A stretch of DNA of 61,393 bases, filler included, from Dugesia japonica (taxonomy: Eukaryota), in the NCBI GenBank assembly GCA_001938525.1. It is 5 parts of 5 records of this genome, joined end to end, with 100 filler letters (N's around TTAATTAATTAA, not from the genome) between each part and the next. Parts side by side here need not be neighbours in the genome. Positions count along the whole stretch, not along the records: positions 37,776 to 52,145 come from MQRL01135452.1; 4 more parts are not named here. One strand, 5' to 3'. This document shows positions 34,501-56,700 of this stretch, piece after piece (the stretch's first letter is position 1; each line of letters begins with the position of its first letter). The notes under the pieces were generated by a model, which worked only from the letters and a program-made list of their open reading frames with translations, ran no database searches and had not been told where the DNA came from. Made by a program: the position numbers and the translations under genes.

Positions 34501-36930
34501 AGAGATTTTTAATTTATATCAGAATATCAGATTGAAGAAGCATACCAGAAGATGTTTACCAATAAAAATAATGAGATTGGATACCTGCTTGAAATTAATC
34601 TTGAAATACCTATCGAAATTCAATTACCTTTGGCTCTTGAACACAAATGTCCAACTGGATCAAAAGTTAAGAAGTTACTTAAATCTCATGAACCAAAACG
34701 ACATTATATCGTATATTGGCGATTATCGGAAATTGTTGTATAAATCTAGATATTAAATAATAAGATATTTAACAAGTTAAAATTATATTTCATAAAATAG
34801 CAATATTAAAACNNNNNNNNNNNNNNNNNNNNNNNNNNNNNNNNNNNNNNNNNNNNNNNNNNATAATTTGAATTTAGATATATTTAAATATTATCATAAT
34901 TTAAATATATCACAGAAACATATATTAATATCGAGGTTCATGTGACTGCATAACTTAGAATAATTCAGTTGAAACAAATGAAAATATTTGCCCATTATAT
35001 TAATACGAATTCTGCAAGAAGAGCAGAATCAAAATCCAAGTTTGAAAAGGATTTCTACAAACTATTAAACAATGTTCTATATTGCCAGACAGAAGAGAAT
35101 TTGAAGAATCGAATGGATCTCCGACTATGTGACAATGAAAAGAAATTTGTAACTTACGCCAGCAAAGTTGCATTTAAGAAAACAATGGATATCGCAAAAA
35201 GACTCAAAGCTGTTCAACTATTGTTGACTTTCTTCATTATAAGAAAAATGAATTTGTGACGAGTTTCTTTTAGTATGACCGATGGCTCATTGAGTATGTG
35301 TCTGGAACTAAATCAATAAAGAAGGGGAGCTGAGGTATTGGTCACTTTACAAAGCATTCCGCTAAATGATAGAATGAAGCAACAATCCAGAGCACTGTAG
35401 AGAAATTGAGATATTACAACTGGCTTCTGATCAAATAACTCAAGAGATTTGCTTTACTCCTTAAGCTTCGCCTACCCTTTCCTAGACGGAAGCGTTCAAT
35501 TAGAGTAATCAAATATGAATAAAAGCTTAGTTCGCTTATTTATGTTTATTGTTTGGTCTTGAATTATTTCTGGATTTTAGCCTGTAATTTTATTGATATT
35601 CAATAAAAGTTTGTTAAGTATTCAAACTATGGGTTAAGTCATCGGTACCCGTGAAAAGTTTTAAAAAGATAATGATAGCCATGAGATAATCTGGTAATTA
35701 CATCGATTAACTGTGAAATAAGTAGAAGCATATGTTTTAAGCGCCCAGCCAGTACAGTATAAAAGTCGGCGGAAAGAGTTTAGAGAGTCGGCCGAACAAT
35801 TCCATTGGCAAATGCGACTTTGGGAGAATCAATCAGAAACCTTTGTGGAGTGGTTGCAACCATCCCATGAATGTGAAGACCATCAAGTACCAAATATCAT
35901 AAAGCTGAGAGCATACATTCTTGCTGAACACCTCATTATGGATATAAGGATACAGCACGGAAAATGAACTAGTATTATATTGAAATTACATGCTGCTAAT
36001 ATAATTTGTTGCTTTGTCTTATCAATAAAATATTTTTGTAATGAAAACCTCTAAATAATCGGTTTATTTCTAGTGTACGGTAGGCATTTTTTCTCCGTCG
36101 TGATCCGATGTCATAGATTGTTGCGAGTACTACTGGTAAATCGATACCTTTACCAGCAACGGGTGAAGCGCTTAAAACTGATGTATCTACGAAAAATCGC
36201 CCTCCTAAATGCAATCAAACCTACTCGTAAATGACAGTTATTTATTGTCTCACGAGGCTAGATGGAACTCAAACATAAGACAAAGATAACTTTGTTGTCA
36301 AAGCATAGTAAATTGGATCAACAACTAATGAGAGTGAATAATGAGATGAAATAGACTAAGGAAAAAATATAGAAATGAAAACACGAATTAAAGAAATCCG
36401 AGCATACAGTTGAACTATGATTTTCAAGTCACCGGCTCTACTCCAGAAATTCAGATCAGGAACAGTGGAAATAACTTTGCTCGGGTTCCAATTTACCTTA
36501 AAATGCAAACTAAAATTAAGCTGCCTAGATAGAACTCCAACAATAATAATGAAAGTTACAAAAATATTTTTGAATTTTGTAATTCCTATTATTTAAATCA
36601 TTTTTTATATTTATTGTTTTCAAAAAACATTAAAAAATATTTGTAGAAACGTAAAGTGAGATTAATTTTAACAAATCTTTTAAAAATAAAAACTATCCAA
36701 ATCATTTTCTACTTTGCCAATTTAAATTTCTTAAGCTATTTATATTTAATTTTTTTAAACTTTAAATTAAATTAATTTCAGAAAACTCCAAACCTGGTAT
36801 TACAGGTTTTCTCGTGGCTTGGAAGAACAAGTGAAACGCGATTCAAGTAGTGATACTGAACTTATTCTTTACAAAGAAGATAATAAACTTATCCCTTATG
36901 AAGGACTATTAGAAGAGTATTTAGAAATGG
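28222..36930 (+). CDS. Partial host anoctamin/TMEM16 gene; exons 28222-28374 and 36782-36930
   Basis: FVGYPGNY...[34 protein letters not shown] joins in phase to KLQTWY...[12 protein letters not shown]; canonical AG/GT sites; ~8.4-kb intron filled with TEs. Confidence 0.92.
28398..28584. repeat. (TAA)n microsatellite spanning a gap
   Basis: Seen directly. Confidence 0.95.
30772..32280 (-). mobile_element. Truncated hAT transposon (3' half of transposase plus one terminus)
   Basis: [30 protein letters not shown] (hATC dimerisation domain); terminus CAAGGTTTTCAAC with TATTCGAATA subterminal palindromes. Confidence 0.8.
33200..34330 (-). pseudogene. Helitron PIF1 helicase remnant
   Basis: [63 protein letters not shown]. 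Confidence 0.88.
34550..35260 (+). pseudogene. Polinton PolB palm-region remnant (third element)
   Basis: [19 protein letters not shown]; [30 protein letters not shown] (motif B). Confidence 0.8.
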
Positions 36931-37775: not shown

Positions 37776-37898
37776 AAAATGCGCATGGAGAATGAGATTT
37801 TCCAGCCAATTATTAAAGGTAAAAATAAGGTTTTTTTCGAGCAGCTTGCAAGAAAAAGATTGCGATTGGCAATGGAAAATGGATAATGGTAATGAAAA
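37776..37898 (+). repeat. Left terminal inverted repeat (outer end lost in the gap)
   Basis: Near-exact reverse complement of 51997-52121. Confidence 0.95.
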
Positions 37899-38101
37899 TT
37901 GCACTCCAAATCGATCATGATAAGGCAGAAATTTGAAGTTAAATGATAAAATCTTATTGAAAATCTTACTGAAAAAAATAAAAAAAAAGAGCAAAAAGTG
38001 GTCCAAATTTAACATGACTTGACAAAATTTAACACAACTAAATTATTTTTAACAGGACTTAACAAAGTTGATATTTTTTATCTTAAATTTTATCATAGTA
38101 A

Positions 38102-38693
38102 AATGACTGAAGAAAAAATAAATAGTATTGTTAATGATGATAATTTGAGTTCCCAAGAACAAGTTATTTTAAGAAAGTATCTTGAGATTTTATCAGATAA
38201 ACCAGCAGCTAAAGTTAAAGAATCATCTACTATAATTGGTGTTAATGTTTTAACATTGAAAAAAATTTTATATAAAAAAGGTTTTATTAAAAAAAAGCCG
38301 AAGGAAAAATGTATTACTATTAACCGATATAGATATGATAGTATTGATGATGTATTAATTCCTGATAAAGATGGTGTTTTTTACCAAAAAAATAATAAAT
38401 CACTTTTAGAATATAAACCAAAGAAGGAAAACATTACTCAAGAAGAAAAATTAAAAAATAAAACTACTAAAGTAAAAAGAAATATTAAGGAAGCCTTACA
38501 AAATAAAGTTCGATATCCAAATCTTGAATTCAAGTATTATAAAAATATGTTTCCTGTACAAGAAATAAAAGCTGGAGCTATTTATGATGAAGAAGAAGAT
38601 TATGTTAATGATGCTAATGATATAAATGATATAAATGATGGTAATGATGATGAAGATATAAAAGATTTACATAATGGTGTTCCAATACCTTAA
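38102..38693 (+). CDS. Hypothetical Lys-rich protein with acidic tail
   Basis: Open frame 38019-38693; probable start at AAAATG 38102. Confidence 0.65.
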
Positions 38694-38822
38694 AATGATG
38701 AACAAAGTTTACCTAAACCTTTTATTAAGAAAAAATGTAAAAAAATGAGATGTAATAGAAATCAAATAGATTTATCATCAAATGTTGGAGATGAGCCATC
38801 CTAATTTATTTGTATATAAAAA

Positions 38823-39212
38823 ATGACCGACTCTTTCATACAAACAATTAAACAAGATAAAATTTTTTGGAAAATAACAAAAGAAGAATTAATGAATACT
38901 GTTGATAAATTACTATTTTGTGAAACAAAAGATGAATTAATACTTTTGGATACTATTAAAAATTTAAATCTTTCTAATAGATTATATAAAGAAGCATATG
39001 AACGAAAATCAAATATTAAAAATATAAACTTTAATTATGAAGATGAAATGGAAAGTATTAAAGAACTTTCAAATTTAAAAATACAAAATAATAAAATCAA
39101 TTGTAATGAAAAGATTAAAAGAATTAAGGAAAATGAAAAGAATAGAATTAAAGAGGAAATTAGAATTAAAAAGAAAAGGATCTCCCAATTAATTGCTAAA
39201 AAAAATATTTAA
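38823..39212 (+). CDS. Hypothetical protein with basic coiled-coil C-terminus
   Basis: 129-aa ORF preceded by TATAAAAA. Confidence 0.65.
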   Translation: MTDSFIQTIKQDKIFWKITKEELMNTVDKLLFCETKDELILLDTIKNLNLSNRLYKEAYERKSNIKNINFNYEDEMESIKELSNLKIQNNKINCNEKIKRIKENEKNRIKEEIRIKKKRISQLIAKKNI

Positions 39213-39215
39213 TAA

Positions 39216-39479
39216 ATGATTGAAATAATATCTTCTGCAAGTAGTATACCAACTAATCAAAGTGAGGATACGAAAAGATTAATTAGTGGAAAAAATAAAT
39301 ATGATAATACTATTGATGAAATGAGTGATGAACTATTGCAATCATCTGATTGGTGGATGAAATTTTACAAATATCTATGTATTATTATAATTGTAATTTT
39401 TATAGTTTATATAATTTGTGATATATATTTTAATCATTACGCACAAATAGTTACTCGACTCAAAAAAATAATTAAATAA
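39216..39479 (+). CDS. Small single-pass membrane protein
   Basis: Hydrophobic run YLCIIIIVIFIVYIICDIYF; tightly packed between its neighbours. Confidence 0.7.
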   Translation: MIEIISSASSIPTNQSEDTKRLISGKNKYDNTIDEMSDELLQSSDWWMKFYKYLCIIIIVIFIVYIICDIYFNHYAQIVTRLKKIIK

Positions 39480-39480
39480 A

Positions 39481-40809
39481 ATGGACCTTGATTTCAATAT
39501 TAATTTTTCTCATCTACAAACTAAAAATGATTTATTAAAAATTTCCCCTACTTCGGGATCAATTAATAATTTAAATAATAATTGGGATATTATATTTCAA
39601 TCCATACAAAATACTAATCCTCTTGATATTGGAAATTCTAAATTATACTTTAAAATAAGTTTCAAAAATTCAGTTGCAACAACAACACTTGAAAATGGTT
39701 TCTTTCCAGCTTTATTTTCTCAAATAAGATTAAAAATAGGTTCGAGTAATATTGAATCAATTACTAATCCTGATGTCTCATCTACAATGTTTAATTTAAT
39801 TTTAATAGATAATTCTGCCGTTAAATCTTATAATGCTTATGGCTGGATTCCAAATAGTAAAGATGAGATCGAAAGCGGTAAAAATAAAAGTTTTATTAAA
39901 CGAAAAGAATTATATTCCAATGGCTATGAAGGATATTATCCCTTAAAAAACTTGTTTGGATTTTTAATGAATTATAATAGATTATTATTTAATACATTTA
40001 TTCAATTAGATTGTAATAGAGTTAAAGAAGTCAACAGTAAAATATTTCATGGAACAACTGAAGATAAAGTTGAAATCCAAATTGATACTTTAGTATTACA
40101 TATTCCAGAATGGAAATTATCACCAAAATTTGAATTGAATTATTTAGAAAGATTAGCAACTAATAAAAGTATTCAATGTTCATTTCTTGAAAGAGAAGCA
40201 GGTAATTGTTCAATAACAACAGGAACTAGTTTTTCAATTAAATTAGGCAATTTACCTTATCGACCTAGATTTGTAATTATTGGATTTAAAAATAAGGATC
40301 CTAGTTACAAGGAAAATAATAATTTATTTACATTAGGAATTACAGATAAATATTTAAAAAGTATTCATTTACAATTAAATAATATTTATTATCCAAATAC
40401 TAGAGTTGAATTTGATACTAATAATAATCAAGAAATGTTTCCATATCAAATGTTTTGTGACATGTGTAAATCATTCAATACTAATCCTCAATTAAGTATT
40501 AAAGATTGGTCAACTTTCTATCCAATATTTTGTTTCGATTGTTCTGCACAAGATGATAAATTAGATATTAATAATGTTGATGTTACTTGCCACTTAACTA
40601 AAGACTCTACTTTAACTGGAAATTTATATTGGTTAATATTACAAGAGAAACATGTCGAACTTAAAATCTCAAATGGTAAAGTAATGTTTGTAGAAAATAT
40701 TAAAGGAACAGATGTTAAAAAGATGGCTATCCAGCTAGCTGGCGACTCTAATATTGGTTTACCATTAAATATGATGATGAATGATGTAAATAAACAAGCT
40801 AAAAAATAA
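39481..40809 (+). CDS. Major capsid protein (double jelly-roll, hexon-like), intact
   Basis: 442 aa with LFSQIRLKIG..IE, PLKNLFGF, PRFVIIGF, LNNIYYP and PIFCFDCSAQ, typical of Polinton MCP. Confidence 0.88.
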   Translation: MDLDFNINFSHLQTKNDLLKISPTSGSINNLNNNWDIIFQSIQNTNPLDIGNSKLYFKISFKNSVATTTLENGFFPALFSQIRLKIGSSNIESITNPDVSSTMFNLILIDNSAVKSYNAYGWIPNSKDEIESGKNKSFIKRKELYSNGYEGYYPLKNLFGFLMNYNRLLFNTFIQLDCNRVKEVNSKIFHGTTEDKVEIQIDTLVLHIPEWKLSPKFELNYLERLATNKSIQCSFLEREAGNCSITTGTSFSIKLGNLPYRPRFVIIGFKNKDPSYKENNNLFTLGITDKYLKSIHLQLNNIYYPNTRVEFDTNNNQEMFPYQMFCDMCKSFNTNPQLSIKDWSTFYPIFCFDCSAQDDKLDINNVDVTCHLTKDSTLTGNLYWLILQEKHVELKISNGKVMFVENIKGTDVKKMAIQLAGDSNIGLPLNMMMNDVNKQAKK

Positions 40810-40818
40810 CTATAAAAA

Positions 40819-42167
40819 ATGTCTAAGAATTGGGAAAATATTCCTGGAAGCACTAAAAGAATTTATAGGAAAAAAATTTAAATACAGTTCCCCAGAAAGC
40901 TGGAGTTAACCGGAAAATAGGAAACGATGTTAAATACGGAAGTGATTTACAATCTTCAAAACTAACTTCAACATTAATGAAACCTTTTACCACTGAAAAA
41001 TATCCTGGAGAAAGACACTTATTTGGTCACAACTATACTGGTCCAGGAACAAGATTAGATTTAAGATTTGATGAAAATTTAAATCCTAAAGAAGGTGAAG
41101 AACCTAAAAATAAAGTTGATGCCAGTGCTTTATAACATGAAATTGCATACATTTCCGAAGATATAAGAGATAGACATTTGGCTGATGTTAATTTAATACA
41201 TGATTTAAATAATATTCAAAATCCAACAACTGCTGAAAAGATACAAATAACATTAGTTAAATTGGCTATGAAAGGTAAAATTATGGTTGGTTCTGGAGTT
41301 CAGGATACTAAAAAAGTAATTTCAGATGAATTATTTAAAGAGGAAATTAGAGCTACCGAATTACATAGAGATTAAAAGAAACCAAAGTTTTATAGGAAAG
41401 TTGTAATTTTAGATAAGGATGAAACATGGTCGGCAGATTTAATTTTTTTAACTTATGGAGCAATGGGTGAAAAATCAAAAAATGTTTTTTTAACTGTTAT
41501 AGATTTATTTACAAGATTTGCATTTGTTAAATTCTGTAGAAATAAAACTGGACCGGCAATTACTGAGACTTTTCAATTAATATTTAACAATTCAGGTAGA
41601 ATGCCAAATAATTTATGGGTAGATCATGGGAAAGAATTTTATAATAAAACATTCAAGAAATTTTGTTTAGATAATGATATTAACATATATTCAACTGATA
41701 ATGAAGGTAAAACTGTTTTTATAGAAAGATTTAATAGAACATTTAAAAATAAATTATTTAAACAATTCACTAAACAAGGACATCAAAAATGGACAAGGAA
41801 ATTAATTCAAGATATTGTTTATGATTATAATAATAATGTTCATTCTTCAATTAATACAACTCCAGTAAAAGCATCGGAAAATCCTAATATTATTAGAGAT
41901 TTAATTAATCAAGATAATTTTAAATATGCCAGTAAACTGGAAAAGCTAGGGAAACAAAAATTTGATATTGGAGACAGAGTTAGAATTGTAAGAATAAAGA
42001 AAAGATATGAAAAGGGGTATACAGCAAAATGGTCAGAGGAAATTTTTATTGTTAATAAAGTATATCACACTAAACCTTATAATTATGGATTGACTAGTTT
42101 AACAGGAGATAAAGTCACTGGGAAATTTTATGATAATGAGTTACAGAAAACTTTGTTATCCAGCTAG
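40819..42167 (+). pseudogene. PLA2-integrase fusion (parvovirus VP1u-type phospholipase A2 plus rve integrase)
   Basis: After a 5' frameshift (~40875) a single frame reads HNYTGPGT..VDASAL*HEIAY..MVGSG..ELHRD*KK..WSADL..LWVDHGKEF..IERFNRTFK..FDIGDRVRI; stops at 41133 and 41373; DDE triad intact. Confidence 0.88.
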
Positions 42168-42182
42168 CTTCAGTCCAACAAG

Positions 42183-43028
42183 TTGGAAACTGGGGAACAA
42201 GCTAAATTATTCCTAAAGAAAATGTATGAACAACCAATTTGGATAGATAATACTAGTATATTTAATCATGAAACTTTTCCATCACAATTTAGGTGCTTAA
42301 TTATTGGTTCATCTGGTTGTAGTAAAAATGTACTGTTACTTAGAATGTTACTTACTCCAGGATTTATAGATTATAATAATTTAATATTATTTTCAACAAC
42401 AATTAATCAATTCGAAATTCAATTAATATATCATGGATTTAATCAGGGACTTTCTAAGGAAGATTTATTGTTAATATTTACTAGAGACATGCAAAAGAAG
42501 ATTCGAGAATCTGGAACTAATGGTAATAAATTAACCCCACAAGAAATTATTTTTTAGTTTATCCAGAATAAATTTCATAAAGCTAATGATGATGATGATG
42601 AAGCTGGACAAATAGAAATGACAATTTCAAATAAAGCTTCAGAAATAATTCCATGTGATAAATTACCCTCCAACAAGAAAAACTTAATTATATTCGATGA
42701 TGTAGTAAATGAAAAGAATCAACAAATTCAAAAAAGTTATTTCACAAGAGGGAGACATAATAATTGCAATGTGATTTATATATCACAAACATATTATGAC
42801 TTGGATAAAAATTCAATTAGAAATAACAGTAACTGTTTTATATTTTTTAAATTAGGAAAAAGAGATATGGATAATGTATATCATGATCTTTTCAGTAACA
42901 TATTTAATAATAAAGAAGAATATACATTTGAAAGTAATCACCATTGGAAAACTAAATATAATTATTTTTATCTTGATAGAGAAAATGAAATATTGATGGA
43001 TAAATTGTTTGAGTCTCCTACCAGTTAA
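42183..43028 (+). pseudogene. FtsK/A32-like packaging ATPase with one in-frame TAG
   Basis: IIGSSGCSK (G>S in Walker A), LIIFDD, RGRHNN..YISQTY; ORFs 42183 and 42618 share a frame, with a stop at 42555. Confidence 0.93.
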
Positions 43029-43073
43029 CTCCAGTTGAACTGAGGCTAACCATTAAAAATATTATATAATAAA

Positions 43074-43619
43074 ATGTCTGAAACTAACATCAATAATACT
43101 AACATAACCGAACAAGGTTTAATTGAATTGATAAATAGTAACAAGTGTAGATCAATAAAAATAAATGGTAAAAATTATTGGATAGGGAAACAAGCTAAAA
43201 ATAAAATCCAGCAGAGACTTGAAAAAGAAGGAGGTATTATTCCTTTACTTGCTTTAATACCTGGAATAGGTGCAGCAGGAACTGCAGCTGCTGGTGTTGC
43301 AGGCGCAGCCGCTGGAATTGCAAAGGCAGTTACAAATGCACGTGAAGCATCTAATGAAAAAAAGAAAGGTGAATTATTGGATCAGCAGTTAATTGGACAA
43401 CTCCAGCAAGCTGGAAAAACTGTTTCTCCAGCTAATCCTGGAGAAGGTTTATATTTAAATCCTTATCAGGGTTCAGCTATTCATAAATATTTAAAATTAA
43501 TTGGTGAAGATGAATTTATAAAGTTTGCTGCTAAATCAAATAAATGGAAAAAAGGTTTACGTGTAGAAAAACATGGAGATGGTTTATATTTAAATCCTTG
43601 GCCACATAAGTCAACTTAA
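43074..43619 (+). CDS. Adenovirus pX-like virion protein
   Basis: KEGG-IIPLLALIPGIGAAG..AAGIAKAV amphipathic segment; two GxGLYLNP repeats. Confidence 0.7.
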   Translation: MSETNINNTNITEQGLIELINSNKCRSIKINGKNYWIGKQAKNKIQQRLEKEGGIIPLLALIPGIGAAGTAAAGVAGAAAGIAKAVTNAREASNEKKKGELLDQQLIGQLQQAGKTVSPANPGEGLYLNPYQGSAIHKYLKLIGEDEFIKFAAKSNKWKKGLRVEKHGDGLYLNPWPHKST

Positions 43620-43634
43620 TTTTTTTTATATAAA

Positions 43635-44721
43635 ATGGAAAATAATGATTGCATTGAAGCAAGAATAAAAATATTAAAACAACAAGTAGTTGGTAGAAAA
43701 AAATATAATAATTTAATTCTTGACCAGCTAGCTCCAGCAAGCTGGGGTCAAGTTAATTATTTTAATATGGATAATAAATTACTTTCTGGAATTAACTTGA
43801 ATAAATTAGATCTTAAATTAGACCCTAAATTAGATCCTAAATTAGATCTAAAATTAGATCCTAAAATAGATTCTAAAATAGATACTAAAATAGATTCTAA
43901 AATAGATTCTAAAATAGATTCTAAAATAGATTCTAAAATAGATTCTAAAATAGATACTAAAATAGATACTAAAATAGATACTAAATTAGATTCTCAGGAT
44001 GTTAAACCAGCTAAGCCTAAGAAAGTTGCACGGAAAGAACCATTTCAAGTTAAAATAAAACTTTCTACTAAAAATAAAATAATGGATCGATTAATCCCTC
44101 AATTTTCAGGTGAATCTTTTGATCATTTTACAATTGATAAAACTGATATTTATTTAATAAAAGTTAATGATGTTAAAATGTTTCATGTTCCTGATTTTGA
44201 AGAAACTGGAGGAAAAGAATATATTCCATTTAGTAATGAAACTTTAAATTTAATGTTTGGACATGGAAGTAGTGATGAAGAATCTGTAAAAAGTTACTTA
44301 AATGATTTTGGTTTAAAATTTGATAGAAGAAACACATATTAGAAATTGTGATGAGATACAACCCACGAAACCTCAACCAACTGAAATAAAAAGTCTAGAA
44401 AGTGTTTATGATCCTGGAATTCCAAAAACAAAACTTCCTAACAAGGAAGATTTTAAACATAAGCCAGATCCATTAAATACTAAAGAAAAAGTATATACTG
44501 GAAATTCTATTCCAGTTAACTGGCCTCACCAGCTAGCTCCAGATTTCTGGGGACTTAAATTATTTGAAGATTTAACTAGAATAATTTCAGGTATAAAAGC
44601 GGGGCATGATAATTTAAATGTTGAATTAAAAACTGTACTTGATAAATTATTAAAATTAAAAATGATTACAAAAGTAAAATATAATAAATATCTTAAAAAA
44701 TATCTAAAAAAAATATCTTAA
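43635..44721 (+). pseudogene. Conserved Polinton protein (KAGHDN C-terminal motif), probably one gene split by a frameshift near 44320
   Basis: Overlapping ORFs 43635-44342 and 44320-44721; the homologous parts lie in one frame in element B. Confidence 0.7.
43803..43994 (+). repeat. Coding 12-bp tandem repeat, 16 x K(L/I)D(L/P/S/T)
   Basis: AAA(T/A)TAGAT(T/C/A)CT-type units. Confidence 0.95.
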
Positions 44722-44803
44722 AAAATATTTAAAAAAATATCTTAAAAAAAATATCTATCTCAAATTTAAGGTAATATAAATAACCTCACTTCGTTCGGTT
44801 TTA

Positions 44804-45544
44804 ATGTCACATCAATTTCAATTCATTGGAAGTGAAGATAAATTAGAATTAAATATTTCTCCAAGGATAGAATTAGAAGATGAATGGGAAGTTGGTTTAA
44901 TTTGGTTTTCTACTTCAAATATGATGATTAATATTTATGGAGATGGGAATGGTAAATTAGCTAATAATAAATATAAAATTAATAATATTGAAAAAACCTT
45001 ATCACCAGGAGCTTATGAAATTGATCAAATAGCTAGTAAATTAAAACTAGATAAAATAAATTTAACTTGGGATCTTTCAACAACTAAAGGAATGATTAGT
45101 TTATTTGTTCCTCCCAGCAAGGATAAAACTCCAGCTAATCAGGAAGTTGTTCAGCCTATCCAACAAGTTGGAAAACTATCGTTTGATGGAAATTCATTCT
45201 TTCATAAAATGTTAAAATTTAATCCTGGTGAATATTTAATTCAGGTTAAAGAAAATATTACTAAAATAAATATTTATGATATTTCAACAATTAATATAAT
45301 ATGTAATCTTGCTCAAGGAAATTATTTAGGAAATCGTGAAAGTAATTTACTTCATACTTTACCTATGGGAACTGTTCCTTATGGCTATAGAATAACTGAA
45401 AGACCTCCAAATCCAATATATTCAGAATTAACTGTAAGATTTATAGATAGAATTAAAATAAATATTGTCGATGATAATTTTAACACTATAGATTTCGATG
45501 GAGAAAAAATTAGTATTTTATTACATGTTAGGAAAACAAAATAA
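44804..45544 (+). CDS. Minor capsid protein (penton), intact
   Basis: PRIEL..WEVGL, PGAYEI, INIICNL, PYGYRITERPPNPIY, IVDDNFNTIDFDGE..LHVRK. Confidence 0.88.
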   Translation: MSHQFQFIGSEDKLELNISPRIELEDEWEVGLIWFSTSNMMINIYGDGNGKLANNKYKINNIEKTLSPGAYEIDQIASKLKLDKINLTWDLSTTKGMISLFVPPSKDKTPANQEVVQPIQQVGKLSFDGNSFFHKMLKFNPGEYLIQVKENITKINIYDISTINIICNLAQGNYLGNRESNLLHTLPMGTVPYGYRITERPPNPIYSELTVRFIDRIKINIVDDNFNTIDFDGEKISILLHVRKTK

Positions 45545-45558
45545 TTTTTATAATAAAA

Positions 45559-46062
45559 ATGACTGATGTTCAACAACAAGTTGGTGATAGAGATTGGAAT
45601 ATATTAGATTTTTTAAAAACATTTGGAATATCAACAATGACTAATTTTGATTTATTGTTAATAGCTGATTTCTTAAAGATGGATATAAAAGTTGTAATGA
45701 GTAATGAGTTTCCTACTCAGTTACCTGAGAGAAATTCATCCTAGATAATTAATTATGAAACATCAAAAGAAAAAGAAACTCACTGGGTTGCATTTTATTT
45801 TAATCCAGTGAATAAAAAGGGTTATTATTTTGATTCTTATGGTTTACCTCCAATAGATTGTATTCAAGACTTGAGTTTTGATATATTTTATGATGATGAA
45901 CAAGTCCAGCCTTGGGGAACAAGAATATGTGGAATTTTATGTATTTACTTTTTGTATAAAATTAATAAAGATCCTGATAGCTTGGAAAACCAGCTTCCAG
46001 TTAACTGGGCTGGAATAATCCAAGAGCTAAAGTCAACTTTTTCTCCATTATTAAATGGCTAA
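45559..46062 (+). pseudogene. Adenain-like cysteine protease with one in-frame TAG
   Basis: THWVAF, YFDSYG, QVQ..ICGILC; stop at 45742. Confidence 0.92.
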
Positions 46063-46378
46063 CTGGATTATGAATAATTTAGGTCAATCTTTACAGTTGG
46101 TGGGTGATACTAAATTATTAGAAATAGCTAGTCAAACAATTGAAGCAAAAATAAAAATATATTCACGTGAAGAAGAAATTAAAAATATAAAGTATAATGA
46201 TAAAAAATATGTTGATGAAAAAATTAAAAACCAACTAGCTGGGGTTGATGATAATTTTAAAACATTAAGAGAAAAAATTAATAAGCAACAAGTTACAATT
46301 GATACAATATTAGAAAGAAATGAAATTCATTTAAGTGAAAGTAAAAAACAATTTATAAAAATAAAACAAAGATGTTAA
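46055..46378 (+). CDS. Hypothetical coiled-coil protein (possibly one gene with 46372-46929)
   Basis: ORF overlaps both neighbours. Confidence 0.55.
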   Translation: MANWIMNNLGQSLQLVGDTKLLEIASQTIEAKIKIYSREEEIKNIKYNDKKYVDEKIKNQLAGVDDNFKTLREKINKQQVTIDTILERNEIHLSESKKQFIKIKQRC

Positions 46379-46929
46379 ATGACTTGGAAGTAGTTAATAT
46401 TCTAATACAGAATAATTTATTTAAGAATAAAAAATTGCATAGTAAAGAATTAAATCAGTTAACTGGAGATTTGACTAAAGAATTATACCAGTTAACTGGA
46501 GATTTGAGAAAGCAAGTTAACAACTTAACAAGTGTTTGTGGAAAAGATAAAATGAACAAGTTACAAAATCAAGTAGATAAATTAATACATGATTTTAATT
46601 TTCGTGTTCAATCAGAAAATGATCCTTTACCTAAATTAAAAACAAGGTTTGAGGGAATAAAACCAGTATTATTTCAAAGAGATGCTGTTGAAAAAGCAAT
46701 TAAAGAATTGGAAAAAGAAAGACAAGAAAATAAACTTTATTCAAAAGATAAATTAAAATTTGTTATTAAAACTATTGATAATTATTTTCCCTATTATCCT
46801 AGTTTGATAGAAAAAGGAAATGTTGTTTTTAGTTTAACAACAAAAGTACTTATAAATAATTTACCATGTATTAGTGTGTGTAAATTTAAAAACTTGGTTA
46901 TTGATGGAAAAGGTAAAATTATAGGATAA
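46372..46929 (+). CDS. Hypothetical coiled-coil protein
   Basis: 185-aa ORF with an 11-aa duplication KEL(N/Y)QLTGDL. Confidence 0.6.
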   Translation: MLNDLEVVNILIQNNLFKNKKLHSKELNQLTGDLTKELYQLTGDLRKQVNNLTSVCGKDKMNKLQNQVDKLIHDFNFRVQSENDPLPKLKTRFEGIKPVLFQRDAVEKAIKELEKERQENKLYSKDKLKFVIKTIDNYFPYYPSLIEKGNVVFSLTTKVLINNLPCISVCKFKNLVIDGKGKIIG

Positions 46930-46933
46930 ACAT

Positions 46934-47284
46934 GTGGAAAATATAGATATATACAATCTCTTGGATAAATTAGAATTAAAATTTGAAAGAATTGATTTTC
47001 AAATTTATGAATTAAATTTTGAAATTGAATGTTTTAATCCATTTAAAACATTAATATTCGTTGAAGTTTTAATTATTATTGAATTAGTTAAAGATCCTAA
47101 AGTAGTGTATAAAACTTTTAAATTTAAAAATGATGCGTATAAAAAAAATAAATATTTAATTAATTCAAAGGAAATTCTAGAGAAAATCCAGGTTGGGGTT
47201 AATTGGAAACCTTTTTCAATACACATGCCAAAAGATATTTTTTTAAAAGAATTGAAAATTATAAATTCTAGAGAATCTGAATAA
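46934..47284 (+). CDS. Hypothetical protein
   Basis: 116-aa ORF (GTG start in the track), co-oriented and tightly packed. Confidence 0.5.
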   Translation: MENIDIYNLLDKLELKFERIDFQIYELNFEIECFNPFKTLIFVEVLIIIELVKDPKVVYKTFKFKNDAYKKNKYLINSKEILEKIQVGVNWKPFSIHMPKDIFLKELKIINSRESE

Positions 47285-47317
47285 GTTCCATTAAATGGAA
47301 ATAATTTTTTTATAAAA

Positions 47318-47985
47318 ATGTCTATCGAAAATATTTATCCCAAGTTAGATTTAGATGATGAGCTAACTACAAGTAGTACGAAGACATAGAAGATTTAAAA
47401 AATAAATTAAATAAAACAAGGATATTAGATTTTGAAAGTGACTTATTATGGATCGATGAAAAATTAAAGCATTATAATAAATTATTAAAAAGATGGAATC
47501 GATTTGATAATGGAGTGAGATTTACAGATGTTGGAATATCTACAATTATAGGAATAGCTTCAGGATCAATTATTTTATTAACAACTCTAAGTTTTGCAGT
47601 TCCTGTTTTAGTCACAGGTATAATAACAGGAATACCAATAATTTATTCCTTGTCTCATGGAACTTTAAGATTAACAGTAATTAAAAAATGATGTGTAAAA
47701 TATCTAGCAAAAATAAAATTATTGGAAGAAACTAAAAGTAAATTATTTGCATATCATGTAAAGGCTTTGGAGGATAATGTTTTAACTAATGTAGAAATAA
47801 AATTTTCAAAGGATTTAATAAATAATTTAAAGAATCCATTTAATAAATTTTCCAGCTCGCTGGATGTTGATAAATTCGATACTCACACTCCAGCTAGTTC
47901 AAATGTTCAAAATTTTAACTTGGATGAATTAAAAAAACTGTTGAATAAAACAATCCAACAGATTTCCATGAAGACGAAAGTTTAA
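47318..47985 (+). pseudogene. Membrane protein with Gly-rich hydrophobic hairpin, disrupted
   Basis: MSIENIYPKL, a frameshift, then VGISTIIGIASGSIILLTTLSFAVPVLVTGIITGIPII, TGA at 47689, then SKLF..KALED. Confidence 0.7.
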
Positions 47986-48103
47986 ATTGTTCCAGCTTAG
48001 CTGGCCTTTAGAAAATATCTATAAGTAAATATCTATAAAAGTATATAACATAAAAAGTTTAAAAAAAAAATAATCACTTAACTCAAATTACTTCTATATA
48101 AAA

Positions 48104-51100
48104 ATGTCCAACATTACTTTTGAAAATTATCTTGAACAAGATTCAGCTCCTTATTATTGTCCATACTGTGAAAGGAGATTTAAAACTTTATACATTTGGG
48201 GAAGTCATTTAAATGGTGCTCCACATAAAAAGAAATTTTTAAAATAGAAAATAAAGATATATGGCTTTGTAAACATTGTGGTGTTGAATGTGGAAATTCA
48301 TTTAATTATAAAAGACATATTGAAAGAATGGCTAGAATTAGAGCAATAAAGGAAGGCCAGGGTGGAGATGAGATAACAGAAACATTTAAAGAAGAAATGA
48401 AAATTTTATATTCTAATTATTTATCTGAGCCCAGTTGGACAATTAAAACATGCTTAGATGCATGGGTAAAATTGAAAATGGAATTACCTGAAGGAGAAAT
48501 TTCACCTGATTATGTTGCAGTAGATGGTGAAACTATTAGTGAGTTTGAAGAACGAATTAATTTTAATGAATTAGATAAATATAAAACCACTGTAAAAAAT
48601 ATTTTAAATTTATATTTAAATAGATTCGATAAATGTATGTTCTGGATGGTTTTTAATGTTAAATTCACTAAAGATTATCACCCTGTAAACTCAGGGTCTG
48701 TTGTTCACACTTCAGTGGATATTAGAAAATTTAAAATCCTAGCTAGAGGAATAACTATAGAATCACAAATTCCAGAAGTTATTTCAGACTGTTTTCAAAA
48801 GGTATTAGAAGAAATGTATGATAATGAAGGAGATGGTTCAGGTTGGTGTATTAAAGAAATAGTTTCATTTACTCTTAATATGAGTAAGTATGAAACTTTA
48901 GCAGGACAAGGATATGAACAACTTCCACTAGAATGGAATTGTGTTCGTGGAATTGTTAATATTAAAAATCCAGAAGATGATTATAATTGTTTTGATTATT
49001 GTCTTCAGGCACACTTGAACCAAAACCTTACAGATGAAATTAATATGTATAAACCTGCTGGATTTAATTTTAAATATAATATGGATACAACTAAAGGTAT
49101 GAATGTAAATGATATAAATAAATTTTGTAAATTAAACGGTTGGAAAATAAATTTATTTGAGGTTAAGAATAGTAATTCCAATCGATGTAAAATTCAAAAA
49201 ATAATTTACATGCACAATAATACATCTCCTAAAAGTACAGATAGGGAATGTAATTTATTAATATATAAAGGACATTACATTTTAATTAAGGATTTAAGAA
49301 AAATATATTGTAAAAATAATAATTATAATGAGATATGCTTAAATTGTATGATTTCATTAAGTAATTTAAAAGCCGTACATAATCATCAAAAATCATGTTT
49401 AGAAAACCCCTCATCACAAATCTTATTTTATCCAGAGGATAATTTTAAATTTAATAATTATCAGATGAAGCATTACATTCCATTTACAATTTACTATGAT
49501 ATTGAAACTTATAATAAAACTAATTCCATTACCCCAAAATCAAAATTATCATGCTTAAGCATTTGTCTTTATATTAAAAGTGAATATGATAATTTACTCC
49601 CATCAAGTTTAAAAACATTTCCCAAGGAAACTTGTTTATCAGATTTTATTAATTATTTGAAGAAAATTAATGATCATATTAATTTAATAATTAATACCCA
49701 ATTAAAAGAATTAGACAAAGCCACAGTTCCATTAATAGAAGAACATGGAATAAAGGAATGTTACTACTGTAAAATTAAATTTAATAATAACGATTTTAAT
49801 AAGGATTTTATTATAACTTCATATAATGAATTCACAGCATGTTTCAGAGGATATTCACATAAATCCTGTAATAAAAAATCATTATTAAAAACAAATTTCT
49901 TTATTCCAGTAATTGCACATAATGGTTCTCATTTTGATAATCATTTTGTTTTCAAGGAAATGTGCAAATTATATCCTAAATCATTAGATAAACTAATCCC
50001 AAATATAATGATGATTATGTAGCTTTTAATTTTGGCAAATTAAGATTTATAGATTCATTAAATCTTTGCCCTGGAACATCAATAGCTAAAATGGGTGAGA
50101 CATTAAGTAAAATTAATAAACACCCAATCTTGGATTCACAGGAGTTATGTCCAAGAAAAAATTATTTTCCATATTCACTTGCTCAGGGTAATTCCCATAG
50201 TGAAGTACTGGATAAATTTAAACAATGGAATCCTAATAAAAAAGATTTCTTCAATCAATTAAATCAACAGGAAATGTCAGAAAGTGAATATAAACAATTC
50301 CTATTAGACTTTGAAGATTTCCGGGTTGAGGACAATCCATTGTTTAAATATAATCTTCATTACATGAAATTGGATGTTTTGATCCTTGCCGATTTCATGG
50401 AGAATCTTAGGAAATTATCCTTAAGAGAAAATGAGATAGATCCATTTTATTGTTACAGTGCTCCAGGACTAACTTGGCAAACTGGCATGAAAAAAACTGG
50501 GATTAATTTAAAATATCCAAGAAAAATAGATTATGACATGCATTTGATGATCCAGCAAGGAATTAGAGGAGGCCAATACTCTGTTTTAGGAAACAGACAC
50601 ATTTTAGCTGGAAAAGAAAACACTATAAAATATCTCGATGAGAATAGTTTATATTCTTTTTGTATGACATTAAAATTACCCTGGGGTTTAATGTCATGGG
50701 GAGAACCAAATTATATAAAAACAAATAATGAATATGAAATAAATTCTGATGGGGAGAAAATATTTACTGATTATATTTACAAAGTGGATTTAAAATATCC
50801 AGATAAAATAAAAGAAAAATCAAAATATTATCCCTTTGCTTTAGAAAAGAAAGCAATAACATATGAACAATTATCCTCCTATCAAAAGAACTTACTTGAT
50901 AAAGCTGGTAAGAAACAAAGTAAGTTTGAAAAATTAATCATGGACCAGGAAGATAAAATAGAATATGTCTGTTTAGGAAACAATGTTAGATTTTTACTTG
51001 GAGCAGGGAATGGGACTTATTAAAGTCCACAGTAAAATAACTGTTCCAACAAAGGAATGGTTGAAGCCCTACATTGAATCAAATATTAAAAAGAGAAATG

Positions 51101-51894
51101 ATTCAAAATTAATTAAAGATGCATTTGGAGATGCATTTTACAAATTATTAAATAATGCATTCTTCGGAAAAACTATGGAGAATGTATTTCATCGAGAAAA
51201 CATTGGGTTGGCAAACACAAATAAAAAATTTTTAACAATGCTTGCTGATGTAAATTTCAAAGAGGCAATTTACATAAATAAAAATGTGGCACTAATTAAA
51301 AGACATAAAAATAATGTCAAGTTTTTAAAGTTCCCATTTATAGGGTTCTTTGTTTTAGAGTATGCTAAAATCACAATGTACAAATTCGTTTATAATGATT
51401 TGGAAAAACATTGTTCTGGTCATTATAAATTACATTATACAGATACTGATTCTCTAGTTTTGGAATTCATTCACCCAGGACAAACTTGGGAGGAATTTAA
51501 ACCTAGAGTGGAACATTTATTTCAAGATAAGTTGGGACAAATGAAAGATGAGTTTCCAAATCATCTAATCACAGAATTTTTCTTTATTAAATCAAAATCT
51601 TATTGCATGATTAAAGAAGATTTATTACAAAATCCTGAGCATGCTGCACAACTTCACATGGCTCACAAGGGATTAAAATATAGTAATAAATTAACTTCTG
51701 ATCAATACAAATCAGTCTTGTATGGTGATAAAACTATATATGGAACTAATTATTCCATACAATCAAAGTTGCATAACGTAACTTTTAATAAACAAATTAA
51801 AATAGGATTGACTCCATTTGATGACAAAACATTCATTTGTTCAGATGGAATAACAACTCTTCCATATGGATATCCTAATATTTATTCACAGTAA
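48104..51894 (+). pseudogene. polB: Protein-primed family B DNA polymerase, three frameshifts (~48240, ~50005, ~50985)
   Basis: Exo motifs YDIET, AHNGSHFD, RFIDS; DVLILAD; GIRGG; YLDENSLY; KLLNNAFFGKTMEN; YTDTDS; N-terminal zinc fingers. Confidence 0.96.
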
Positions 51895-51996
51895 CAGAGA
51901 TTAGTTTCTATATTAAAATATTAAAATAATAGTTAGGGCAACCTTTTTAATTTATCGTTGCCATCCTGATTTTTCAGCTAGCTGGCCAACTTACAT

Positions 51997-52145
51997 TTTT
52001 CATTACCATTATCCATTTTCCATTGCCAATCGCAATCTCTTTCTTGCAAGCTGCTCGAAAAAAAACCTTATTTTTTACCTTTAATAATTGGCTGGAAAAT
52101 CTCATTCTCCATGCGCATTTTTCATGAATCATGCGCATTTTTTTA
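51997..52145 (-). repeat. Right terminal inverted repeat
   Basis: Reverse complement of 37776-37898, followed by a duplicated CATGCGCATTTTT unit running into the gap. Confidence 0.95.
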
Positions 52146-53352: not shown

Positions 53353-53715
53353 AAAAGAAAATTTTTTGAATCAATTTATCATGACAGTCATAAAAGAAAA
53401 TGTTAAGTTTATAAGTTTAATTTTATAATATAAATAAATTTAATCAGTCCATTTTGTTTTTCTTTATTTTAACTCTTTATTTCTTTAACTCATCGTTATG
53501 ACTTATACTTAGGACTCATTGTTTTTGTTTCAGGCATCAATGAGTCATACTTATGACTAATCGTGTTTGTTATAAATGTTCTTTGTCTAGGAGGGACGAG
53601 TCACCCAGATCTAGAAAAACGATGACTCATCATTATGACTCATACTTATGCCTCATCGTCTTTGTTATAAATGTTCTTTTTCTAGGGGGGGGTGATCCAG
53701 TGCGCCGCTACCTAC

Positions 53716-56700
53716 CTACTCTTCAAAATGATCTTGATTCTTGTTTCTTGTTTCAACTTTCACTAAGACCTCATCACCAATCTCGAATCGTCTTTTAGTC
53801 AATATCTCTTTATCTTGTTCTTTGTGCTCTCTTTGAGAATTTGGTTTGCACCATTTTTCTCTGCTTATTCTCTTCCCAAATACGACTTCACGAGGGATTC
53901 TCCCGATGGTTTTCTGTTTTGTAGCATTCAAAGTAAATTCTATCTTCGGCAATTCATCCGCCTAATCTGAGGTTTTCCTTTCTTTACGTGTCACATTTAT
54001 AATATCCCGCATAGTTCTAAACTGTCTCTCCATTTTCCCTTTGTGTTATGATGATATGGACTCAACAACATGAGAGTAATTCAACTTTCATTGATTTACA
54101 CTCAAACGCTTTTCCATAATCAACTCTAAATTCTCTCGTACACCCGAACTTTAAACTCCACTTCTCCAATTTTGCTTTCCGTGTGGTATTTTCATCTTGT
54201 CTTCCCATTGCTATCAAAGATACATACTTACTGCAATGATCTATTATACCGAGAAAATATCTTTTTCGACCTCTTGTCTCCTGCAGTGGTCCACACATAA
54301 CTCAAAAATGTCGGCTGGCTGAGTCTTTTCGTTTCTTCCTTCGTTTTGTGTTGTCAACACTATAGCTTTCTGGCATGTTATACAACCTCTTGTACTCCAC
54401 AAATGTCTTGCTTTCTATTTATGATTCATATACGCTGGCATTGTTTCTGATCCAGCAAGACACAGATGGCGTATCCTCATTACAACCTCTTCTAATTTAT
54501 CATCAATTATCCATGTTCTTTCATCATTTTCTCCAAAATAGCGTAGTTTCTCTTGAATATCTACTTAATTTAACATCCTTGTTTTTAATTTTCACTTTTT
54601 GGGATCTTTATGTGACATAATACATTCTGTACATGTATTGCATTTACTCGTTGAAAACCTATTCGCATTTGTTTGAAGTGATCCTTTTCTATATTCCGAT
54701 TTAATATCTAAACTGCTCAAAAAATAATTCCAAATTTGAAACTGTGATGTGATCGGTTTCTTCATAGTTAGACTTATGGTCTGTTTTAAGGATAAATTTC
54801 TTCCCGTATAAGCAATGTGGGAAATGAATACAAAATTAGTAAATTGAAGTAAAAAGCAGTAAAAGTACTTTCGTGTAGTACAATATTCTTTCTTATGACT
54901 CGTCATTGCGTGTGACCCATATGCAATTACTCTTCCTTGTTCATTGTTGTCCCTTTAAAATAGTACTGCATCAATCGTATCGAAACTCGCATCTATCTCC
55001 AAAACAAATTCTCTATTTATATCTTGAAAACATAATATTGGAGACATCATAAGTTCTTCTTTCATTCCATTAAAAACTTCTTATTCATTCGCCTATACAA
55101 TCCATTTGTTACTTGGTCGACTACACAGTTGTTCCAGCAATCTACCTTTTTTCGAATAATTTTTAATAAATTTGCGATAGTAATTGAAAATTCCCAAAAC
55201 GCCTCTCATCTTCTGAACACATTTTAATTTGCCTAAATTCTCGATTTCTTTCTATTTTAGAATGAATCTTTTGTGTCACCTTCTTTACTGATAACGTGTC
55301 CCAGAAATTTGATCTCGTTTCATAGGAATTGAAATTACTATGGATTAACTCTTAGACCAGCATTATAAATTTTTGCCAATACTTTATTGACTATTTAATA
55401 GTGTTGCTACTTTGTTTTAGTAAATATGATAATATCATCTAAATAATCATCACCATATTCATGATACCATTATCATATAGATTCTTGATGACCTCTTCAA
55501 TTTTTTCCTCTAGAGTCATTGGTTGGCGATACAATTTTTTGTTAATTGTACCTCCTTTAGTGATTATTTGATGCTTTATTAAGTGTGTGCATTCAACGTC
55601 CCATTTTCCCTCCATAAATGCATCCTCATTATTCTAAATAATCACAGTCAATCTATGATCTTTGTTAATTTCTAGAATATCTATTGCATGTCTCAATCGT
55701 TTGTCCGTCTGTATTTGCCTTCTAAATTGTGACTCGATGTTGCAAACAAATTGTTCTCGTTGATTATTGGTGTCTATCCTGCACTTTCTTTGCAGATGAT
55801 ACGAAACAAATATTCTAAAATTCCACTAAACCAATTAGATTTGGTATTAGTTTCTCTACTATTATAAATGTTACTTCCTTGCACACCTCTGCAATTACAA
55901 CTTCCACACAAATCTTTTAAATTGTCAAATTTTAATGTTCTGTTTCTTTTCAATTGTTCCTAACTCTTTTGCTATGTTAACTTTTGTATCATTGAAATTT
56001 CCTCTTTTTAAGAATCTGTAAACCTTTTCTCCAACTTTACTCATCTCATCCAATTTCTTGGCCTTCTGAGAATAATCAAACAGTATTTCGTTTAATGAAT
56101 GGTTACGACCAACGTCTCTACTGGTGGAGCTCTGTCTTTTGGGTATTCTCTTGTCGATTTTTTTTTCTATTATGCTTCCAGAAAATGTCTTGTCATATTC
56201 ATAATCATCTTCTTCTCGAATGGCATGGATTGGTTTGGTCCAACTCCAATCTTTTGTTTGTTGTACGCTTTTAAAATTGTATCTTCTTTCTTTTAGTCTT
56301 GGTTTGTTAATGTTCAAATAATCTTCTTCCGCTCTGTGACTCGGTGTTTTACATCTACAGCATACAATTTCTGTGCACATGCTTCTGATGTGACCAATCT
56401 TACCACACCCAAAACATTTTGGTGGTTTCTTGTTTGGAAAATTTCTACTTAAATGTTCTTTCTTGTGGCAAGTCCAACATTTCACATGAAAACTTTTCAG
56501 ATACCATTTTTGTGTGCCCATAACTATGGCATGTCCAACATTCTGGTTCTATTCTTTTCGTAACTCTCTCGATATTTGTCTTATGTCTTCAGTTCGTTCT
56601 CCGCGTATTACAACAGCGTAACTCTTTATTAAGTCAGTAGATTTTCGTCTTTCTCTTCTTTCAACTAGTGATAGTTTTTCTTTTATATCTTCTATTTTCT

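What the first reader, a model, noticed from the sequence alone, without database searches (positions are those of the whole stretch)
37776..52145. Near-complete virus-like Polinton with full morphogenesis module, all genes on one strand
Seen: TIRs of at least 120 bp, intact MCP and penton, ATPase, protease, PLA2-integrase, pPolB and several orphan ORFs, all co-oriented with minimal spacers. About a dozen stops or frameshifts hit PolB, ATPase, protease and PLA2, so this copy looks dead but reconstructable. The PolB is of the GIRGG / KxxNNxxFGKTMEN type. Inference: an endogenous adintovirus-like lineage that may be undescribed in this host.
Basis: partly seen in the sequence, partly recalled or inferred. 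Interest (0 to 1): 0.78.

Follow-up and report, generated by a model that had tools for sequence, protein, structure and literature searches.

The report
Dead Polinton with phospholipase-integrase fusion
This is a broken copy of a known kind of virus-like jumping element (a Polinton) with a full set of capsid genes; its family joins a predicted membrane-piercing enzyme to the integrase in one protein, which would likely be packed into particles and cut apart by the element's own protease.

Summary
Observation largely confirmed. 37776-52145 is a 14.4 kb Polinton filling one contig between two scaffold gaps, so true ends and target-site duplication are unseen. TIR arms match at 124 of 128 columns; all genes are on +. 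MCP and penton fold like double and single jelly-roll capsid proteins. The host holds many diverged relatives, and a second decayed copy lies at 19.4-25.2 kb. Co-orientation is not a family trait. The notable feature is the PLA2-integrase fusion: whole and unbroken in 3 database proteins and 4 of 22 metagenome loci. GG or GxG sites flank the PLA2 domain (junction: 16 of 17 sequences; none in 1,882 integrase residues), the pattern that mavirus protease cuts. Likely a virion-packaged polyprotein releasing PLA2 and integrase (inferred, untested). Five paper searches found no description of the fusion, though large Atlas clusters share the architecture. Host unidentified; Repbase not searchable. 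The scan had not noted this before. New variant of a known kind; interest 0.42.

The parts
37776..37901 (+). Left terminal inverted repeat, inner part only (cut by a scaffold gap)
   Evidence: 124 of 128 columns match the right arm
38103..38693 (+). orfA, orphan, acidic tail; the frame continues past the stop, which may be a lesion
   Evidence: no Pfam or PHROG hit
38823..39212 (+). orfB, orphan, basic and predicted helical
   Evidence: no significant family
39216..39479 (+). orfC, 87 aa with one hydrophobic stretch, likely a membrane protein
   Evidence: sequence; no significant family
39481..40809 (+). Major capsid protein, double jelly-roll; open frame, 442 aa
   Evidence: PF21738 E 4e-18; model pLDDT 67 matches iridovirus, PBCV-1, mavirus and Sputnik capsids, best E 1e-13
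40819..42167 (+). PLA2-integrase fusion gene, broken by one frame switch and two stops; predicted protease site after the PLA2 domain; no chromodomain
42222..43028 (+). A32-like packaging ATPase, one internal stop, altered Walker A motif
   Evidence: Pox_A32 E 3e-8 when read with X at the stop; compared with the second copy
43074..43619 (+). pX-like core protein as a separate gene, with a GG site before the hydrophobic helix and two GxG repeats
   Evidence: Adeno_PX E 0.013, below cut-off; matches in copy 2, L002, L004, L007; motifs
43635..44721 (+). orfD/E, likely one frame-shifted gene with a 12-bp tandem repeat (43802-43994)
   Evidence: C-terminal part matches copy 2 and L007
44804..45544 (+). 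Penton (minor capsid protein), single jelly-roll; open frame, 246 aa
   Evidence: 607 relatives at E<=0.001; model pLDDT 91; best matches mavirus penton E 2e-8, adenovirus penton base, Sputnik penton
45559..46062 (+). Adenovirus-type maturation cysteine protease, one internal stop
   Evidence: Peptidase_C5 E 3.5e-7 with X at the stop
46055..47284 (+). orfF, orfG, orfH: orphans; G and H may be one shifted gene
47318..47985 (+). orfI, protein with a long hydrophobic segment, broken by a frame switch and a stop; many relatives in the host
   Evidence: match in L011; depth peak
48104..51894 (+). Protein-primed DNA polymerase B in four pieces: zinc fingers, OTU-like Cys and His, exonuclease, degenerate HNH insert, polymerase motifs
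51994..52145 (-). Right terminal inverted repeat, inner part only (cut by a scaffold gap)

Best explanation
This is a broken Polinton (class Polintoviricetes) with capsid, penton, packaging ATPase, protease, polymerase and a PLA2-integrase fusion gene, likely integrated and dead, whose active ancestors would likely have packed the fusion protein into particles and cut it with their own protease. Shown: the gene set, the two jelly-roll folds (as predicted models), the lesions, the same DNA in runs of three studies, many diverged relatives in the host, and the unbroken one-chain PLA2-integrase in relatives with glycine-pair sites on both sides of the PLA2 domain. Inferred cycle: the polymerase copies the element from its inverted repeats by protein priming; the ATPase fills a capsid of MCP and penton; the zinc finger-PLA2-integrase precursor and pX are packed with the DNA; the protease cuts at the GG or GxG sites; freed PLA2 helps the particle through a membrane and freed integrase inserts the DNA into the next genome. 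In the described PLA2X protein pX fills the slot behind PLA2; here the integrase fills it and pX is a separate gene. This copy then decayed by roughly 0.6-0.9% substitutions per site. Confidence: Polinton identity 0.97, dead endogenous copy 0.9, fusion real in the family 0.95, packaging and cleavage 0.55.
For: Folds. Fusion: 3 of 4 hits among 71 candidates carry PF08398 and PF00665 in one chain; whole unbroken ORFs in L002, L004, L005, L007 of 22 loci; no stop between the PLA2 core and the first integrase motif in 8 of 10 loci where both were read; both window copies keep the two domains in one frame, with their stops at different places. Sites: GG or GxG right after PLA2 in 16 of 17 sequences found by the script, GG before PLA2 in 13 of 19 (one more by eye), 0 such motifs in 1,882 residues of the integrase part of 7 fusions. 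The classical PLA2X proteins in L019-L021 show the same kind of sites. Precedent: mavirus protease cuts GG|X and GX|G, integrase is found in mavirus particles, and a predicted hydrolase is processed there (PMC6048507, passages); Polinton PLA2 was proposed to be packed and to aid entry (PMC4642659, passage). Real DNA: contigs with 0 or 1 differences and no gaps span both main PolB shifts (X3) and the PLA2 shift (X2). Decay: 5-6 stops imply 0.6-0.9% per site, in line with 2 mismatches in 126 between the repeat arms. The two window copies diverged under purifying selection (dN/dS 0.22, 0.29, 0.50).
Against: No cleavage, packaging or PLA2 activity was tested; the motif sequences are kin (about 45-75% identical), so the counts are not independent. 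L010 lacks the junction motif; 3 of 4 database fusions have a Met between the domains, so separate initiation is not excluded there. The N-side site is GS in this copy and absent in copy 2. Both ends are scaffold gaps, so integration at this place is not shown. The MCP model is only moderately confident (pLDDT 67, TM about 0.5). Atlas scores (0.82-0.85) are leads only. The RNA lay had no positive control.
Confidence: 0.8

Rival explanations
1. The fusion is real but works as one uncut protein, or only saves genome space: the glycine site is a leftover of the PLA2X ancestor, and integrase acts inside the cell without a particle stage.
For: The same sites exist in ordinary PLA2X proteins (L019-L021), so they may simply be inherited; no activity was tested; some fusions have a Met in the linker.
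Against: The site is kept in two alternative forms (GG and GxG) while the linker behind it varies in length and sequence (14-62 residues to the first integrase motif); none of 9 metagenome loci scored has a Met in the linker.
Confidence: 0.3
2. The element is a member of a Polinton family already catalogued for this host (for example in Repbase), so nothing about the lineage is new.
For: The family is abundant in the host (6,400-6,941 contigs laid per DNA run), the host has many public RNA runs, and abundant Polintons of well-studied invertebrates are catalogued (recalled; Hydra and Nematostella labels in PMC4642659).
Against: No named protein is close: MCP relatives are unnamed at 43-51%, PolB is a long branch with 39% at best. 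These collections do not hold Repbase, so this is weak.
Confidence: 0.35
3. The contig is an assembly mosaic of many copies, a contaminant, or a free viral genome placed here by scaffolding.
For: It is bounded by gaps on both sides; no listed contig spans the whole stretch or shows a host junction.
Against: Contigs of up to 1,860 bases match with 0 or 1 differences in runs of 2014, 2015 and 2025 from three studies of one organism; a dozen lesions cannot belong to a replicating virus; G+C (25.7%) equals the flanks (26.5%).
Confidence: 0.06
4. The stops are not lesions but recoding or a changed genetic code.
For: All five firm internal stops lie in frame with the rest of their genes.
Against: All three stop codons are involved, TAA and TAG also end the genes, frameshifts are present as well, and relatives are open at these places.
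Confidence: 0.01

Closest known systems
Polintons / Mavericks, class Polintoviricetes, likely group 2 (Alpha adintoviruses of Starrett et al., PMC8502044)
   Same: pPolB, rve integrase, A32 ATPase, adenovirus-type protease, double jelly-roll MCP, penton, TIRs, about 15 kb; a parvovirus-like PLA2, common in group 2 and typical of Alpha virion modules.
   Different: PLA2 is joined to the integrase rather than to pX (no PLA2X); pX is a separate gene; the integrase has no chromodomain; the HNH insert of PolB has lost its catalytic motif; sequence identity to any relative is at most 51% (MCP).
Spodoptera frugiperda Mavericks 1 and 2 (PMC5803895; listed under Alpha PolB in PMC8502044 Fig. S2)
   Same: PolB with an endonuclease VII-like insert, PLA2-bearing protein, integrase, protease, ATPase.
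   Different: There PLA2 (CAP) and integrase are separate ORFs and the integrase has a chromodomain; no sequence comparison was possible.
Mavirus (virophage)
   Same: Packs an rve integrase and a protease-processed predicted hydrolase; protease cuts GG|X and GX|G; best structural match for the penton.
   Different: Integrase and hydrolase are separate genes; capsid only 8-9% identical; depends on a giant virus in a protist (recalled).
ESM Atlas clusters of rve + Phospholip_A2_4 proteins (184, 111 and 72 members)
   Same: Same two domains in one chain, assigned mostly to Preplasmiviricota where a taxon is known.
   Different: Two of the three clusters also carry a chromodomain; automatic names only, scores under 0.9; no paper found that describes them.
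Retroviral Gag-Pol (analogy only, recalled)
   Same: Integrase reaches the particle as part of a precursor that the viral protease cuts.
   Different: Unrelated structural partner, DNA genome, cysteine protease; the likeness is inferred, not shown.

Membership tests
Polintoviricetes (Polinton/Maverick) | [quoted passage not shown] | tested here: met
   33 relatives at E<=0.001 among 2,360 candidates; exonuclease and polymerase motifs aligned; gene in pieces
Polintoviricetes (Polinton/Maverick) | Retrovirus-like (rve) integrase | tested here: met
   PF00665 E 3e-9, above cut-off; three acidic catalytic positions present
Polintoviricetes (Polinton/Maverick) | [quoted passage not shown] | tested here: met
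   PF21738; Foldseek matches to solved DJR capsids, E 1e-13
Polintoviricetes (Polinton/Maverick) | Single jelly-roll penton | tested here: met
   pLDDT 91 model; mavirus, adenovirus and Sputnik pentons fill the top ranks
Polintoviricetes (Polinton/Maverick) | A32-like ATPase and adenovirus-type cysteine protease | tested here: met
   Pox_A32 and Peptidase_C5 above cut-off; both genes broken
Polintoviricetes (Polinton/Maverick) | Terminal inverted repeats | tested here: met
   124 of 128 columns
Polintoviricetes (Polinton/Maverick) | Terminal bases and 5-6 bp target-site duplication (recalled) | not testable with these tools
   Both ends run into scaffold gaps; no junction listed; no genome held
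Adintovirus (Starrett 2021, Buck 2024) | OTU-like domain in the PolB N-terminal half | tested here: inconclusive
   A Cys and a His are invariant in 8 of 8 aligned PolBs where an OTU domain is expected; the domain label is from PMC11161782 passages and recall, not from a profile or fold search
Adintovirus (Starrett 2021, Buck 2024) | Integrase with C-terminal chromodomain | tested here: not met
   No chromo hit in the window integrase or in P0098-P0100; all end at the same place
Adintovirus, Alpha virion module | PLA2X: PLA2 followed by a pX-like domain | tested here: not met
   PLA2 is followed by integrase; pX-like gene separate
Adintovirus, Alpha or Beta | Hexon and PolB cluster with the Mayetiola or Terrapene references | not testable with these tools
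   Reference sequences not readable in the supplement; no close adintovirus capsid in BFVD. Indirect signs conflict: HNH-bearing PolB and PLA2 point to Alpha/group 2, but PF03175 hits none of the window pieces and 3 of 33 relatives
pPolB2 class (Jeong et al. 2023) | HNH (endonuclease VII) insert in pPolB and placement in the pPolB2 clade | tested here: inconclusive
   20 of 33 relatives carry PF02945; the window keeps the cysteine frame but not the catalytic motif; no labelled references for a tree

The most novel reading that the evidence does not exclude
A widespread, undescribed Polinton lineage loads its integrase into particles as a zinc finger-PLA2-integrase polyprotein matured by the capsid protease, a Gag-Pol-like solution in a DNA virus. 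Integration would then be tied to a particle stage, which is direct genetic evidence that these elements spread as viruses, and this host would carry a large, recently active family of them.
Probability: 0.4. Interest if true: 0.65.

Novelty: new variant of a known kind. Interest (0 to 1): 0.42.

Why it matters
A dead Polinton with capsid genes is ordinary. What matters is the fusion. Particles of animal Polintons have not been observed (abstract of PMC8097293 in the listing), and how their integrase reaches the next nucleus is not settled. A precursor that ties integrase to a membrane-lytic structural protein, with predicted protease sites at the joints, gives a cheap biochemical test (does the protease cut there?) and a marker (a cleaved integrase N-terminus) to look for natural particles.

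Tried and rejected
No whole genome is held, so copy number, junctions and host genes could not be read. The look-up of contigs that encode a given protein was closed, so the contexts of P0001-P0100 are unknown. MCP profile in viral contigs: 76 pattern matches, none confirmed. PLA2-integrase in viral contigs: 1 locus of 419 matches, a parvovirus VP1. Sequence search of solved structures: nothing for MCP, one weak hit for the penton profile. Pfam and PHROGs name none of the orphan ORFs. The Atlas held neither the penton nor P0055. No RNA holder was listed for the stretch; raw RNA reads of 4 runs gave 25-41 laid reads out of 10.5-13.6 million read, 85-100% of them short partial matches, without a positive control, and no small-RNA run was laid. 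Summed contig depth (up to about 27,000 against 4-8 for exact contigs) is not a copy number. The PolB tree (31 of 34 sequences; 3 short matches left out) puts the window on a long branch whose place is unsure; the PLA2 tree (18 rows; 8 short or duplicate loci left out, L008 and L013 not caught by the anchor) has little support. My early reading of the PolB as Beta-type was dropped. Host guesses used in two paper searches identified nothing. Earlier scan notes: nothing relevant. A changed genetic code was rejected. No complex prediction was run: a protease with its substrate is a poor case for it.
Full report
Setting. The window is 26% G+C eukaryotic DNA full of transposon remnants and scaffold gaps. 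No genome is held. The finding fills exactly one contig, 37776-52145, between two 100-base gap linkers (N44-TTAATTAATTAA-N44) of a kind seen four times in the window. The host is not identified; all 24 listed runs carry one organism label, and the DNA runs assemble to 680-930 million letters. [quoted passage not shown]

Observation. The inner parts of two inverted repeats match at 124 of 128 columns. The true ends and any target-site duplication lie in the gaps. Genes cover 92% of the contig, all on +, with spacers of -26 to 129 bases and no minus-strand ORF of 100 residues or more; the strand skew agrees. Order: orfA, orfB, orfC, MCP, PLA2-integrase, ATPase, pX-like, orfD/E, penton, protease, orfF-H, orfI, PolB. 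Pfam names MCP, integrase, ATPase and protease above cut-off, and PLA2 and pX below it.

Capsid proteins. The MCP has 6 relatives among 3,164 candidates, five at 43-51% and all unnamed. Its model (7 sequences, pLDDT 67) matches solved double jelly-roll capsids of an iridovirus, PBCV-1, mavirus and Sputnik (best E 1e-13, TM about 0.5); in BFVD nothing is closer than about 15%. The 246-residue ORF without a family hit has 607 relatives; with 111 of the 150 listed ones as alignment it folds at pLDDT 91 and its best matches are the mavirus, adenovirus and Sputnik pentons (best E 2e-8).

Polymerase. The middle piece finds 33 relatives among 2,360 longer candidates, at most 39% identical; 20 of 33 carry an endonuclease VII (HNH) domain and 3 of 33 PF03175. 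Against 7 of them the window keeps a Cys and His where an OTU protease is expected, the exonuclease motifs and the cysteine frame of the HNH insert, but not its catalytic motif. It forms a long branch. Indirect signs point to group 2 (Alpha): Spodoptera Mavericks have an endonuclease VII insert and a PLA2 protein (PMC5803895, section 12 and passages) and are listed under Alpha PolB (PMC8502044, Fig. S2 text); HNH-bearing pPolB2 lies within group 2 (10.1101/2023.08.22.554363, section 8 and passages). The scarce PF03175 hits point the other way, and no labelled reference could be compared; the slides and sequence files of the PMC8502044 supplement were unreadable or cut, and bioRxiv supplements are closed, so they may bear on this and on the fusion.

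Is it dead, and is it real? Six lesions are shown by unbroken homologues, four more by frame and start context, three are possible; the Walker A motif and the PLA2 catalytic pair also differ from relatives. Contigs from runs of three studies (2014, 2015, 2025) match this copy with 0 or 1 differences over up to 1,860 bases and span both main PolB shifts and the PLA2 shift without gaps (one run may be the source of the assembly; only 32 pieces were shown and the stops at 41133, 41373, 42555 and 45742 are not among those spanned). Five to six stops imply 0.6-0.9% substitutions per site, close to the divergence of the repeat arms, so decay looks neutral and fairly recent (inference). Four RNA runs give only 25-41 partial reads each (no positive control). 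Each DNA run lays 6,400-6,941 contigs at 85% or more, most of them under 95% alike and piled on MCP, PLA2-integrase, ATPase and protease: the host holds many diverged relatives, though depth is no copy number.

Second copy. At 19.4-25.2 kb lies a more decayed relative, mostly on the minus strand, 40-73% identical in its core proteins, with an internally deleted MCP and an inverted ATPase. dN/dS between the two is 0.22-0.50, so they are separate subfamilies that diverged while active. With L007 (MCP on the opposite strand) and L002/L004 (pX before ATPase), this shows that the one-strand layout is not a family feature.

The fusion. Read with X at its stops, the PLA2 part finds 4 proteins among 71 candidates; 3 carry PLA2 and rve in one chain. 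A metagenome scan gives 22 loci; L002, L004, L005 and L007 hold the whole unbroken ORF, usually zinc finger-PLA2-integrase, and 8 of 10 loci where both domains were read have no stop between them. Both window copies keep the domains in frame, with stops at different places. L019-L021 hold the classical PLA2X (PLA2 then pX) described for Alpha adintoviruses (PMC8502044, part 2 of 6 and passages). The Atlas lists three clusters of 184, 111 and 72 proteins with both domains (scores 0.82-0.85, a lead only), so the architecture is widespread. Directly after PLA2 there is GG or GxG in 16 of 17 sequences found by the script (L010 lacks it; L011, missed by the script, has it); before PLA2, GG in 13 of 19, GS in 3, none in 3 (one of these has GG further on); the integrase part of 7 fusions has no such motif in 1,882 residues. 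These sequences are kin, so the counts are not independent, and 3 of 4 database fusions have a Met in the linker.

Mechanism. Mavirus protease cuts GG|X and GX|G, and mavirus particles contain integrase and a processed predicted hydrolase (PMC6048507, passages). Polinton PLA2 was proposed to be packed and to aid entry (PMC4642659, passage). The simplest reading is that the integrase took the place of pX behind PLA2, rides into the particle on that precursor and is freed at maturation. Packing, cutting and enzyme activity are all inferred (0.55). Replication by protein priming and the OTU role follow PMC11161782 (passages).

Literature. Searches, and term look-ups in PMC3671162, PMC11131425, PMC11071296, 10.64898/2026.06.19.733378 and 10.64898/2026.10.13.758929, all passages only, found PLA2 in Polintons but no PLA2-integrase fusion. 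The library lacks most subscription papers and Repbase reports. PMC8532177 (passages) shows piRNA control of Polintons in one invertebrate; it is not shown to be this host. The scan's earlier notes held nothing related.

Verdict. A Polintoviricetes member by every testable defining gene; it fails two adintovirus hallmarks (chromodomain, PLA2X) in a way shared by its relatives. The dead copy is ordinary; the polyprotein is a testable, apparently undescribed variant. Interest 0.42.

Noticed in passing
window 19375-25200: Second, more decayed Polinton of the same family, mostly on the minus strand: MCP with an internal deletion of about 280 codons, zinc finger-PLA2-integrase, pX-like, orfD/E, penton, protease; its integrase end is tandemly duplicated across a gap (23030-23823).
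   Followed up: partly
window 21999-22793: The ATPase gene of the second copy is inverted relative to its neighbours, with both breakpoints between genes; a true inversion or an assembly turn.
   Followed up: partly
window 34954-35259: Isolated fragment of a Polinton-type PolB (36% identical to the finding's last piece), from a third element.
   Followed up: no
window 38103-48104: A short AT motif precedes gene starts in the element: AAA directly before ATG in 10 of 14 starts against 25 of 332 other ATGs, TATA within 12 bases in 7 of 14 against 31 of 332 (two starts were chosen with this context in view). It recalls late promoters of large DNA viruses (recalled).
   Followed up: partly
window 43802-43994: In-frame 12-bp tandem repeat, 16 copies, giving a four-residue charged repeat in orfD.
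   Followed up: no
window 40710-40809: The MCP has a tail of about 30 residues absent from its relatives and poorly predicted; may be a lesion or a real extension.
   Followed up: no
window 5463-6332, 17167-17511, 53700-56550: Other transposon remnants: a BED-finger transposase fragment, a reverse transcriptase fragment, and a decayed LTR retrotransposon (zinc knuckle, RNase H) on the minus strand right of the finding; the window looks like a transposon graveyard.
   Followed up: no
window 18085-18420: F-box domain fragment on the minus strand (E 2e-9), the only host-like coding piece found.
   Followed up: no
L019, L020, L021: Classical PLA2X proteins (PLA2 then pX) next to a penton, with a PLA2 domain close to that of the integrase fusions; a possible sister of the fused form.
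   Followed up: partly
L007:157-6645: Longest metagenome relative: PLA2-integrase, MCP on the opposite strand, pX-like, ATPase, orfE-like, penton; same gene set, different order.
   Followed up: partly
L001:2798-5095: A parvovirus VP1 capsid gene with its PLA2 domain in a viral contig, caught by the PLA2 pattern.
   Followed up: no
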